Assembly: GCA_977030845.1 (NCBI GenBank)
Contig: OZ365115.1
Coordinates: forward strand, 14,012,001 to 14,076,000
Direction of reading: 5' to 3'
Origin: Fimbriosthenelais zetlandica
Lineage: Eukaryota
DNA: 64,000 bases
The number at the start of each line of letters is the position of its first letter. Position 1 is the stretch's first letter. The position numbers are program-made. Positions 6,001 through 9,000 of this stretch are shown one piece after another.

Positions 6001-9000
6001 CTGCTATGAATGCCAGCAGATACATTTTAAGCTTCTATCCTCTCTTCTCTCTTCTCCATGACTAAACTTTTCTGCTCTGTCCAAAAATTTTCCAGATTCC
6101 AAAACTAGGAAAGTAATGCAACGGCGGTACAAGTCGAACATGGTGAGTAGGAGACTTTATTACTTTAAGGATATTTTATAAGTTTACTCTGTATTTCTGG
6201 GTCATTTAGGCATGTTTTATCATGTAAGAGTTTCATCAGTTTTTCCACTTAGATTGGATTTTATACATTATTGACTTTCCAAGTGCTGAAAAACTTGATC
6301 GAAGCAATTCAGGCAGTTTGTTGTCTTAAATTTACTAGACGTTTCTGGATCTAGGACTGAGTTTTGGGTTTCCCTCATGTGATCCAATGTCTGGATCCTG
6401 CTAGTTCTCTTCTAGATGTGGTGTGCCTCAGAGATTGGTCTTGAGACCTGGGCTATCTAAGGCTTAGTAAAGAGATCCACTCCTTGGTCTACCCACAACA
6501 ACCCTACCTTCATTGCTGTCCATCTCCTCTAGCAGTTCCCATGAGAGACATGGTTAACATGGTTATGGAAGACATGGTTAACAAAGATTTGTGCATTAGT
6601 TTCCATAAAGTAAAATCTTTACACGAACAGACAATTCACTTTCCAACGCTTCAGATTACTTTAGACTCTTTCCATTGTCCCAATATTGTCTTGTCGGGTT
6701 CTGTTTAAGCCTGAGTTTATTTAATGATGATGATTTTCCACCAAACAGATTTTACCTACCCTTCCCTTGTATGCCTAGTACATGTATTATTAGTCCATTG
6801 AGCTACTACCTTTTACCCTGTTCATGTTAGAGTTCATGAATTTATGATTTTTGTTGTATTTATGTCAATATTTCACTTAGTTTAGTATTTTGACCTGCTG
6901 GATTTCTGTTTTACTAAAAAAAAACCTAAGATCCTAGTATGATTCTGAATTCCCATTTTCGCATATGTAAGTTAACAAGAATTGGACCTTCCCTGTGATC
7001 GATAAATTGTTTTTTGCCTGAAGTGGTATACACATTTGAAAACTGTTATCCATATATTAGCAAAATTGCCCATATCCATATCAACATCAAAATGAAAAAA
7101 GAAATCTTCCAAAAGTGTTGATCATGAACTTACTATTATAAATGAATTTGAGATATATTATTTTGCTCAGAAAAATGAGAAATCCAGCATGTCTGCTGTA
7201 GGTATGATTTGAGTATGGACTTATGTTGTTGTATTTTCTGTTCCCTTTGTTGTATGGTACCCCACCCTTACAGGCCAGTGGTATAGCTCTAGCACTGCAC
7301 AGAACCATAACAGTTAAAATCCAGCGACTAGCTGCGGCTTCACGAGCTGAGACAATCATAGAGGAACCCGAGGATACAACAGACGCTCACTCTGACACTA
7401 CTATTATTACACTGGGTAAAACGACGTCAGTAGGTGACATAACGTCACTATCTAAATCACCGTCTACAGCGTCACTGTCAGAGCAGACTGATGATACAGA
7501 TATACAGAGACAAACTGATACCACCTATAGTAATGGTAGAACACAAGGCATGACAGCTCCCAATGACAAAACTATCATGAACGGAACGTTAAATAACAAT
7601 ATACCAAACGCCACGCGGGAGATTACAAACAAGAACATGAAGAAAGGGGAAAATGAGACGGGAGTTGACAGGAGGAGTGTGACAGACCCGCCACAGTGAC
7701 AGGAAAGATGAAGTGGGTTTAAAATGTGGATTACAGAGATTTGGACTCTCAGCACTGCTTTAACTATACTAACTACTGCACCTGGTGCATTACTTACTTA
7801 CAAGGCTGGACTAGAAACAAGATAGCTGATGTACATAGCACTACTGACTCTTATAAGCTGGACCTGGGGCGGCCATGTTTAGAGCACATAAGATAAGCTT
7901 GGAGAATGTAGGATGAATGGTAATCTTTATCAACGAAGCCTGTTTCATAATCATAGGCTACAGTATAGTTATGAAACAATCCCGGGGGCCTGTTTCTTAA
8001 TAGATTATGAAATAGTGGCCAGGTTTCTGATTGTCTGAAGCTAGATTACTGATTCATATCCTCTCTTGACAAGTCAGAAAGGCATCAAGCGATCATACAG
8101 TGATCTGATCTACCTGTCTCTGATAGGGGCAGACATATTAAAATCTAAACTGAAGATAAATAGATGAATTAAATACATTACTGATTCATCGTGTATTCTC
8201 AAGCTAACCATGCACCGCCAGTACTTCAACTAACGTTAAAATTGTATCCTTCTGTACTGTTTGTCTCCCCCTCTAATATTGGTTTCAATATTTCGATGCC
8301 TGACCTACTTTACATTGAAATAACTTTTCCCTCTGTACTAATGCTGCAGACTCCTGCAGTTTAGCAATTTTTTAAACTGCTTTCAGCTTTGAATTGTGTT
8401 ACATGAGGCTGTAAAATAAGTCAAGATATGCTTGGCTATTTTTCTAAATCAATGCTTAGTTGCAGGCATGTTTCTGTAGATATTCAGCTGTTGATTTACT
8501 TTATAAGGGAGTCTTGGTCTATTGCTACTAACTGATTCTGAGGCCGGTTCTGGTTGGAGGTTCCTCAGTCAATATGGCTGACATCCATGAGCCTATAAGG
8601 TCTAAGTTAGACTAACCGGACTCTCTACTCTCATCTGGGTTTAAGGTTCATTTCTTGACGTCCATCTTGCAGAATGTTTTGGTTTACATAATAACAGCTC
8701 ATCTATTCTCAATTCTGATTCTCTTCAGTAGACTTAACATATATCTTACCTTATTATTTCAATGAAAATATTCTTGATATCTTAGTTAATTTATATGCAG
8801 TCTGCCCCCAATATTCTTGATTTCATGAGGAATCCGTTTCCATTAAATTCATCTATTTCCCATACATGCATTATGATTGTGATGTTTGTATTCTGTAAAT
8901 ATTCTGTAATATTTTCATTGATATCTTAATTCTTGGTATTCATTATCAGATATCTTTACATCATTTGCAGTCTGTAGTTCTCACTCTTATCTATGATACA

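What the first reader, a model, noticed from the sequence alone, without database searches (positions are those of the whole stretch)
7274..7699. Possible novel alternative C-terminus for MADD/Rab3-GEF from an old exon duplication
Seen: a phase-compatible acceptor 1.1 kb after the YKSNM exon opens a 141-aa frame, 1.4 kb before the canonical last exon. Its first residues (ASGIALAL) keep the A..I..A[VL] pattern of the canonical exon (ADRICYAV), then run into a long T/S/D/N-rich, probably disordered tail. Knowledge: the C-terminal region of MADD carries its death-domain-like segment. Inference: mutually exclusive last exons could swap the conserved CYxVLCxFSY helix for a phosphorylatable tail. 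I recall no such isoform.
Basis: partly seen in the sequence, partly recalled or inferred. Interest (0 to 1): 0.68.

Follow-up and report, generated by a model that had tools for sequence, protein, structure and literature searches.

The report
Conserved alternative last exon of MADD
The open frame in the last intron of this invertebrate MADD/Rab3-GEF gene is a real alternative final coding exon, but the same ending is already in database gene models of molluscs, an annelid and a nemertean, so it is a new member of an annotated isoform class.

Summary
A phase-0 acceptor (cag|G) at 7273/7274 opens 141 codons ending at TGA 7697-7699, between the 47-nt ..YKSNM exon (6096-6142) and the canonical last exon (9120-9236). 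It is a genuine exon. A profile of 11 annotated alternative MADD C-termini from other species, with the window left out, finds this ORF as best of 3,428 window ORFs (E=7e-4) and starts exactly at 7274. BLASTP to Mytilus galloprovincialis isoform X8 aligns residues 1-23 with that protein's last residues (14/23, E=2e-5). An unnamed 154-aa protein (P0002) shares a further block (34/64 identical). Of 112 related proteins examined, 38 carry this "HR-type" ending (13 named species in three phyla), 51 the canonical ending and 11 a third short ending. The isoform is therefore old and already annotated, though my four relevant paper searches found no discussion of it. It does not simply swap a helix for a tail: it keeps its own 18-25-residue amphipathic start with invariant His-Arg. 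This lineage adds an acidic Ser/Thr-rich block and a non-conserved tail. Exon-duplication origin is plausible at family level and undetectable in the window pair.

The parts
4526..4598 (+). Constitutive 73-nt MADD exon (FFIELSRIKKCFTQKGGIFVLEEF + 1 nt), the middle of the PH-like domain. Its length is not a multiple of three.
   Evidence: Pfam PH_MADD PF25328, E=1.7e-9, 38.2 bits (cut-off 27) on ORF 4379-4657, residues 45-76. The splice sites tttcag|TTC and TTTG|gtaaga are read. It aligns to annotated MADD proteins.
6096..6142 (+). Constitutive 47-nt exon, (D)SKTRKVMQRRYKSNM, with donor ATG|gtgagt. This is the shared upstream junction for both last exons. Read in its other frame it gives IPKLGK*.
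   Evidence: Sequence; weak PH_MADD match to profile positions 61-84; tblastn to P0004, P0007 and P0009; IPKLGK*.
7253..7273 (+). 3' splice site of the alternative exon (gtatggtaccccacccttacag).
   Evidence: Sequence. Pyrimidine fraction 0.65, with CAG|G and no AG in the 15 nt upstream; ranks 35 of 174 AGs. The alt-tail HMM alignment begins at the first codon after it.
7274..7699 (+). Alternative last coding exon: 141 codons plus TGA. Residues 1-25 are the HR-type helix-like segment conserved across phyla. Residues 26-70 are an acidic, Ser/Thr-rich block conserved only with P0002. Residues 71-141 are a non-conserved polar tail.
   Evidence: Translation. HMM of 11 alt tails from other species: E=7.1e-4, best of 3,428 ORFs. 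BLASTP to P0067: 14/23 identical, E=2e-5. phmmer hit P0002, E=6.6e-10; tblastn 34/64 identical, E=3e-17. Block and tail conservation tests.
7700..8200 (+). Putative 3' UTR of the alternative exon, with ATTAAA at 8137-8142 and 8168-8173 (inferred, not shown).
   Evidence: The A>T skew block runs from about 7250 to 8220 and turns negative after that. These are the first + strand AWTAAA hexamers after the stop. No 5' splice site between 7274 and 9119 scores above 1.9, against 2.74 and 5.93 for the two known donors (rough matrix).
9039..9077 (+). Duplicated copy of the last-exon acceptor and start. It reads ADRICSAVLCVL*.
   Evidence: 81-nt tandem duplication 8997-9154 (TRF 2.0 copies, 87% matches, score 246). 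The canonical-tail HMM hits it at E=2.6e-4.
9120..9236 (+). Canonical last coding exon: 38 codons plus TAG, ADRICYAVLCVFSYVAAGMEARQQMLEAAQRSGVSKTL.
   Evidence: Canonical-tail HMM E=3.7e-17, starting at 9120. tblastn with P0007: 28/40 identical. Weak PH_MADD match to profile positions 70-92.

Best explanation
The window is non-human, invertebrate (lophotrochozoan-like) DNA that holds the 3' end of a MADD/Rab3-GEF gene. After the 47-nt exon ending ..YKSNM (6142), the transcript can be completed in two ways. Splicing to 9120 gives the canonical ending, ADRICYAVLCVFSYV.... Splicing to 7274 gives a second, evolutionarily conserved ending. Both last exons start in phase 0 at the same junction. Both first encode an 18-25-residue hydrophobic, helix-like segment that finishes the C-terminal PH-like domain (Pfam PF25328 profile positions about 78-92). 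The alternative exon has its own conserved version of that segment, with an invariant His-Arg where the canonical exon has Leu-Cys.

In this lineage the alternative exon continues into a 45-residue acidic, Ser/Thr-rich block (..EDTTDAHSDTTIITL....SVGD...LSKS..), conserved with one other organism's protein. After that comes a non-conserved polar tail of about 70 residues.

Shown: the exon, its exact start, its homology to annotated alternative MADD C-termini in three phyla, and the presence of both endings within single species.

Inferred: that it is a terminal exon with its own poly(A) site near 8190, giving a short 3' UTR against roughly 4.2 kb for the canonical exon. Also inferred: that choosing the exon changes the exposed face of the closing element of the PH-like domain and what hangs from it, so tuning partner or intramolecular contacts of the C-terminal region rather than removing the domain.
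For: - Gene identity: PH_MADD hit above the curated cut-off. The canonical tail profile hits 9120-9233 at E=3.7e-17.
- Exon identity: a profile of 11 non-redundant alt tails from other species finds ORF 7208-7696 as best of 3,428 window ORFs (E=7.1e-4; the next is 0.08). Profile position 1 falls on the codon at 7274.
- BLASTP of P0001 against M. galloprovincialis isoform X8 (P0067) aligns residues 1-23 to 1650-1672 of 1673, 14/23 identical, E=2e-5. tblastn with P0010 gives the same place.
- Of 112 relatives, 38 are alt, 51 canonical, 11 short, 2 chimeric, 4 lack the junction and 6 give no information. The alt class occurs in 13 named species, and 9 of them also have canonical isoforms among the proteins in hand. 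The phyla are Mollusca, Annelida and Nemertea.
- His-Arg is invariant in all 14 aligned alt-type proteins and present in the window.
- Pfam's PH_MADD alignment runs 12 residues into the alt tail of P0010 and P0067, to profile position 86 of 92.
- Lineage-specific block: P0002 scores E=6.6e-10 against 1.84 billion representatives. It maps only to 7295-7486, 34/64 identical without gaps. The block scores 118, against a shuffled maximum of 49 in 0 of 2,000 shuffles.
- Frame specificity and the composition shift; ORF length statistics.
- Terminal-exon reading: skew block, first hexamers at 8137 and 8168, no usable donor.
Against: - No transcript data from this organism were available, so use of the 6142^7274 junction is inferred from homology alone.
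- The relatives' isoforms are mostly computational XP_ models. Whether reads support them could not be seen.
- The acceptor is only average for the intron (rank 35 of 174).
- BLASTP does not find the C-terminal match to the nemertean protein P0004.
- The first search for longer proteins with P0001 found nothing.
- Residues 71-141 show no sequence conservation with P0002: score 28 against a shuffled mean of 32, reached by 1,609 of 2,000 shuffles. Half of the 141-residue tail may therefore be unconstrained read-through to the first stop.
- The poly(A) hexamers are at chance density, and the donor matrix was a rough one written from memory. Terminal versus cassette architecture is therefore not settled.
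- The helix and PH-domain packing claim rests on Pfam coordinates and residue pattern only.
Confidence: 0.85

Rival explanations
1. The protein is the same but the mRNA architecture differs. The exon would be an internal cassette that carries a stop and is then spliced on to 9120, not a terminal exon with its own poly(A) site. This would be a poison-exon-like or regulated-stop design.
For: The ATTAAA hexamers at 8137 and 8168 are at background density. In human MADD, exon 34 is one of the alternatively spliced exons (exons 13, 16, 21, 26, 34), according to a passage of PMC12603207. Two Mytilus gene models (P0064, P0108) join the first 10-13 alt residues to the canonical exon.
Against: Between 7274 and 9119 the best 5' splice-site score is 1.9 (GAA|GTGGGT at 7713), below both known donors of this gene (2.74 and 5.93). 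The A>T skew block ends near 8220, just after the hexamers. The two chimeric models are non-RefSeq predictions, and the window has no GT at the corresponding positions.
Confidence: 0.15
2. Only the first 25-70 codons are functional. The long T/S/D/N-rich remainder would be neutral read-through to the first stop and have no role of its own.
For: Alt tails of other taxa total only 24-61 residues. Window residues 71-141 show no sequence similarity to the matching part of P0002 (1,609 of 2,000 shuffles score as well).
Against: Both the window (141 codons) and P0002 (154 residues) stay open far beyond the conserved block and have similar composition. With the local base composition, about 2% of random 71-codon stretches would be stop-free. 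That figure is my own arithmetic from the frequencies.
Confidence: 0.4
3. This is a chance open frame, or a separate nested or transposon-derived gene in the intron, unrelated to MADD splicing.
For: A window of 64 kb can produce a 163-codon frame by chance (18 of 500 simulations of only 12 kb). An ATG at 7223 could start a 157-residue ORF with a hydrophobic start. P0002 was called as a stand-alone 154-aa protein on a 2,254-nt contig.
Against: The homologous peptide is the C-terminus of 38 annotated MADD proteins and directly follows ..KS.M in them. The profile match starts at the acceptor, not at an ATG. P0002's initial Met aligns to Leu8 of the window peptide, so there is no conserved start codon. 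The ORF is single-copy in the window, contains no tandem repeat and has no Pfam family.
Confidence: 0.03

Closest known systems
Annotated 'HR-type' C-terminal isoforms of lophotrochozoan MADD, for example Magallana gigas isoform X1 (XP_034330542.1, P0028), Mytilus galloprovincialis isoform X8 (XP_076115176.1, P0067), Octopus sinensis X6 (P0097), Lamellibrachia satsuma (P0009) and Tubulanus polymorphus (P0004)
   Same: The gene, the junction after ..KS.M and the motif A-x-x-[IML]-x-[LF]-x-x-H-R-[VIT]-[VIF] are the same, and the canonical ending coexists in the same species.
   Different: Those tails total 24-61 residues, while the window's has 141. The acidic DAHSDTTII.L / SVGD / LSKS block is shared only with the unnamed protein P0002.
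Canonical MADD last exon (A[DE]QICYAVLCVFSYVAAG...), which closes the Pfam PH_MADD domain PF25328
   Same: Both exons use the same upstream donor and phase and start with Ala. Hydrophobic positions 4, 7/8, 11/12 and 17 agree. At family level, 40 of 100,000 column permutations reach the observed score.
   Different: BLASTP finds no similarity within the window. hhalign gives only P=0.037 and probability 0.7%. Leu-Cys becomes His-Arg. The PH_MADD score is about 20 bits lower for an alt isoform (106.0) than for a canonical isoform of a sister Mytilus species (126.6).
Human IG20/MADD isoform set (alternative splicing of exons 13, 16, 21, 26 and 34)
   Same: It is the same gene family, and exon 34 is one of the alternatively spliced exons (passage of PMC12603207). 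That exon 34 lies near the 3' end of a 36-exon gene and carries a stop is my recollection only; the source paper PMC2760438 was not held.

Membership tests
MADD / Rab3-GEF gene (3' end) | C-terminal PH-like domain PF25328 scoring above Pfam's curated cut-off | tested here: met
   38.2 bits against a cut-off of 27, E=1.7e-9, on the exon at 4526-4598.
MADD / Rab3-GEF gene (3' end) | uDENN/DENN and death domains upstream | not testable with these tools
   They lie outside the window. tblastn found no upstream exon in 1-4525. Relatives carry PF03456, PF02141 and PF23629.
HR-type alternative C-terminal exon of lophotrochozoan MADD | Lies between the ..KS.M exon and the canonical last exon, with a phase-0 acceptor | tested here: met
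   6142|gt ... cag|7274 ... 9120.
HR-type alternative C-terminal exon of lophotrochozoan MADD | Sequence motif with invariant His-Arg at positions 9-10 and a significant match to the family | tested here: met
   ASGIALALHRTITV. HMM E=7.1e-4, best of 3,428 ORFs. BLASTP E=2e-5 to P0067. One negative: BLASTP to P0004 finds nothing.
HR-type alternative C-terminal exon of lophotrochozoan MADD | Transcripts of this organism use the junction | not testable with these tools
   No read or transcript collection for eukaryotes was on hand.
Tandemly duplicated, mutually exclusive exons | Adjacent exons with the same phase that replace the same part of the protein | tested here: met
   Both start in phase 0 after 6142. 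Pfam aligns the first 12 alt residues to the end of PH_MADD, where the canonical exon aligns.
Tandemly duplicated, mutually exclusive exons | Significant sequence similarity between the two exons | tested here: inconclusive
   Window pair: no BLASTP alignment and 9,011 of 100,000 permutations. Exon families: 40 of 100,000 permutations, z=3.56, but hhalign P=0.037 and probability 0.7%. Shared packing constraints could give the same pattern.
Alternative last exon with its own poly(A) site | In-exon stop, a downstream poly(A) signal before the next exon, and no 5' splice site | tested here: inconclusive
   Stop at 7697-7699. ATTAAA at 8137 and 8168, but at chance density. Best donor score 1.9 on a rough matrix. 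The skew block ends at about 8220.

The most novel reading that the evidence does not exclude
The HR-type and the canonical (ICY-type) last exons would be an ancient tandem duplicate pair that gives the PH-like domain of Rab3-GEF two alternative closing elements. Under this reading the pair has been kept for more than half a billion years across at least three phyla. It may go back to the bilaterian ancestor and correspond to the vertebrate exon-34 switch. On top of it, the window's lineage would have grafted a new acidic, Ser/Thr-rich module (DAHSDTTII.L...SVGD...LSKS) that acts as a regulated docking or phosphorylation site. That would define an unstudied, conserved isoform switch in a core synaptic-vesicle and secretory Rab regulator.
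Probability: 0.3. Interest if true: 0.5.

Novelty: new member of a known kind. Interest (0 to 1): 0.28.

Why it matters
MADD/Rab3-GEF activates Rab3 and Rab27 and links KIF1A to synaptic vesicles (PMC8298099, passages). In humans the region after the death domain matters for function: skipping exon 30 causes disease while exchange activity stays intact (PMC11141940, abstract and passages), and deleting the death domain abolishes function (PMC6526710, passage). If the alternative closing element of the C-terminal PH-like domain is conserved across phyla, the isoform choice is probably functional and could be tested in tractable invertebrates. For genome annotation, the result shows that this unannotated genome uses the three 3'-end designs seen in molluscs. 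It also gives exact coordinates for them.

Tried and rejected
- Exon duplication tested inside the window: BLASTP of the alt against the canonical peptide gave no alignment. One search had used a wrong frame, 9121 instead of 9120.
- P0001 alone found nothing in several searches. Pfam gave only noise (Tantalus, E=0.12). The word-index search of proteins of 248-2000 aa gave none. The 'near' search with alignment A1 returned only P0002 itself. The ESM Atlas gave no usable hit. PDB gave nothing for P0001 (E=0.64 noise) or for P0010.
- My first guesses of upstream exons at 2670-2876 and 3112-3423 had no Pfam or tblastn support and were dropped.
- The 9-nt 'DFE' microexon seen in some relatives was not found. 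The only pattern hit has one mismatch, lacks the GT, and is at chance level (43 of 100 shuffles).
- The poly(A) hexamers and acceptor strength do not stand out as independent evidence.
- Rfam and tRNA scans found nothing.
No fold is reported.
- Papers that might document the human exon-34 stop were not held: PMC2760438, PMC3217125 and PMC2679454.
- The paper searches concerned the human exon 34. Those looked for this invertebrate isoform or for alternative MADD C-termini generally. None of the listed papers dealt with it.
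Full report
**What the window is.** The window has no N and about 39% GC. Its MADD exons match lophotrochozoan proteins best: 57-92% identity over short exons, and none near 100%. I take it for a non-human invertebrate contig, so the rule for human contigs did not apply. Every search used a single exon, a single ORF or a database protein.

**The observation.**
- The 47-nt exon 6096-6142 ends ..YKSNM|gtgagt.
- cag|G at 7273/7274 opens 141 codons up to TGA at 7697-7699.
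- The canonical last exon is 9120-9236 (38 codons plus TAG).
- The stop-to-stop frame (163 codons) is the longest in the first 12 kb.
- Simulations reached that length in 5 of 2,000 runs for the intron and in 18 of 500 for 12 kb.
- Only this frame is open: 1 terminal stop, against 12 and 16 stops in the other + frames.
- Base composition changes sharply at the exon, to T 17.6% and GC 45.3% from T 37-40% and GC 35% in the flanks.
- The acceptor is ordinary for the intron (rank 35 of 174 AGs).
- The ATTAAA hexamers at 8137 and 8168 are at background density.

**Gene identity.**
- Pfam's 'MADD C-terminal PH-like domain' (PF25328) hits the exon at 4526-4598 above its cut-off (38.2 bits, E=1.7e-9).
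- The 6096 exon and the canonical last exon give weak matches to profile positions 61-84 and 70-92.
- In relatives the death domain PF23629 lies about 125 residues upstream of the PH-like domain. The last exons therefore close the PH-like domain and are not part of the death domain.
- No upstream MADD exon was found in 1-4525, so the window begins inside an intron.

**What the frame is.**
- A phmmer search of the 141-residue peptide (P0001) against 1.84 billion representatives gave one hit. It is P0002, an unnamed 154-residue ENA protein on a 2,254-nt contig (E=6.6e-10).
- P0002 maps only to 7295-7486, with 34/64 identical residues and no gaps.
- The decisive evidence came from searching the PH exon ORF for longer proteins and listing members of ten clusters.
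- Of the 112 proteins so obtained (P0003-P0114), 51 end with the canonical A[DE]QICYAVLCVFSYVAAG....
- A further 38 end, after the same ..KS.M junction, with a second conserved sequence such as ANQMALMVHRIFTVQHARLRS.. (oysters), AQGIALMLHRVIAVQIARLELLSN (Mytilus), ANQMVLMVHRVFAKH.. (Octopus), TSQAMLAFHRVVSIQ.. (Lamellibrachia) or ANQIVLAFHRVVSVL.. (Tubulanus).
- Of the rest, 11 have a short third ending, 2 are chimeric, 4 lack the junction and 6 give no information.
- These proteins are many isoforms of few genes, and at most 15 members per cluster were listed. The counts therefore describe annotation, not independent events.
- The alt class occurs in 13 named species. Nine of them also have canonical isoforms among the proteins in hand.
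- The phyla are Mollusca, Annelida and Nemertea.
- A profile of 11 non-redundant alt tails, window excluded, finds ORF 7208-7696 as best of 3,428 window ORFs (E=7.1e-4; the next is 0.08). Its first position falls on the codon at 7274.
- BLASTP of P0001 against Mytilus galloprovincialis isoform X8 aligns residues 1-23 with residues 1650-1672 of 1673 (14/23, E=2e-5).
- BLASTP against the nemertean protein finds nothing.
- The first word-index search with P0001 also found nothing. I attribute this to the alignable part being only about 20 residues long (inference).

**Anatomy of the product.**
- Residues 1-25 (ASGIALALHRTITVKIQRLAAASRA) are hydrophobic and basic, and they are conserved across phyla. 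His9-Arg10 are invariant in all 14 aligned alt proteins.
- Residues 26-70 are acidic and 40% Ser/Thr. They are strongly conserved with P0002: score 118 against a shuffled maximum of 49, reached in 0 of 2,000 shuffles.
- Residues 71-141 show no sequence conservation with P0002 (1,609 of 2,000 shuffles score as well), although both frames stay open.
- In other taxa the whole alt tail is 24-61 residues. The long extension is therefore specific to this lineage.

**How it most likely works.**
- Choice of the 3' exon decides which version of the last element of the PH-like domain is made, and what follows it.
- Pfam aligns the first 12 alt residues of P0010 and P0067 to the end of the PH_MADD profile (to position 86 of 92). 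An alt isoform (M. galloprovincialis, P0067) scores about 20 bits lower than a canonical isoform of a sister species (M. trossulus, P0019): 106.0 against 126.6.
- In classical PH folds a C-terminal helix caps the beta-sandwich (established knowledge). That the last exons encode that helix is inferred from profile coordinates and the hydrophobic pattern.
- I favour a terminal exon with its own poly(A) site near 8190. The A>T skew block runs from about 7250 to 8220. The first sense-strand hexamers after the stop are at 8137 and 8168. No 5' splice site between 7274 and 9119 scores above 1.9, against 2.74 and 5.93 for the known donors, on a rough matrix written from memory. This step is inferred.
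- The functional consequence, such as altered partner or intramolecular contacts or phospho-regulation of the acidic block, is speculation.

**Exon duplication.**
- Within the window the two exon starts are not significantly alike.
- Between the two exon families, the ungapped register from the junction scores 9.17 against -12.2 +/- 6.0 for permuted columns (40 of 100,000 permutations). All shifted registers score below zero.
- hhalign gives only P=0.037 and probability 0.7%.
- Common descent and convergent packing constraints both fit. I put duplication at roughly even odds.

**Comparison with what is known.**
- The isoform class is already in public gene models (XP_ records of Magallana, Crassostrea, Saccostrea, Ostrea, Mytilus, Argopecten, Mizuhopecten and Octopus).
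- Four paper searches bore on it, and none of the listed papers discusses it. Three further searches concerned the human exon 34. I did not see supplements.
- That exon 34 carries a stop is my recollection only, and its homology to this exon was not tested.
- Genomic DNA of relatives was not available. No synteny or dN/dS test could therefore be run.

**Verdict.** The finding is real and well placed, but ordinary in kind. It is a new member, with an unusually long lineage-specific tail, of an annotated and evolutionarily old alternative C-terminus of MADD.

Noticed in passing
window 6096-6142 (with 4526-4598): The 47-nt exon codes in two frames. With the 73-nt PH exon it reads (D)SKTRKVMQRRYKSNM. 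If that exon is skipped (73 = 24x3+1) it reads IPKLGK*. The ending ..ANSK(DFE)[MI]P[RK][IL]GK* closes 11 annotated isoforms of oysters, scallops and octopuses. It is a third conserved 3' end, and it truncates the PH-like domain.
   Followed up: yes
window 8997-9154: An 81-nt tandem duplication copies the last-exon acceptor and its first 39 nt (TRF 2.0 copies, 87% matches). The upstream copy has a cag|G acceptor at 9038/9039 and would read ADRICSAVLCVL*. It is either a competing splice site that truncates the canonical ending or an assembly or polymorphic duplication.
   Followed up: partly
window 8842-13442: This is the longest sense-strand stretch of the window without AATAAA or ATTAAA (4,600 nt). 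Simulations of 9237-13441 gave zero hexamers in 14 of 1,000 runs (mean 5.2), and the hexamers become dense after 13442. This suggests a 3' UTR of about 4.2 kb for the canonical last exon, against roughly 0.5 kb for the alternative one.
   Followed up: partly
window 9250-9370: A GC-rich (55-63%) long hairpin lies right after the canonical stop. The + strand RNA folds at -69.3 kcal/mol, against -50.7 +/- 4.3 for shuffles (z=-4.37, 0 of 200). The minus strand gives z=-2.58. There is no Rfam family, only weak mir-m107-1 matches on both strands.
   Followed up: partly
window 4436-4525: The intron just upstream of the PH exon, read in the exon's frame, weakly resembles the peptide of the preceding MADD exon (PLID-TSGDACLGCVCHHAHGLL against PVQDLKSGQGGLLQVCMEGIGLL) in the tblastn extensions. 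This may be chance or a decayed copy. The true upstream exon is not in the window.
   Followed up: no
proteins P0064, P0108, P0011, P0103 (relatives): Several gene models have odd endings. Two Mytilus models join 10-13 alt-exon residues to the canonical exon. Ostrea edulis X3 ends in an unrelated 37 residues after VLEEFD. Octopus sinensis X9 ends ..ANSKNQHIKRF. These are either prediction artefacts or further minor 3' variants.
   Followed up: no
window 23065-23448 (-), 32271-32612 (+), 35832-36842 (-), 41464-42471 (-), 51442-63858 (+): Other genes lie downstream. Two exon-like ORFs give sub-threshold matches to the glutamate-receptor ligand-binding site PF10613. There are two intronless ORFs of about 335 aa, one with a sub-threshold match to the 7tm chemosensory receptor family PF08395. 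Long Gln/Thr/Gly-rich ORFs of up to 770 aa have no Pfam family.
   Followed up: partly
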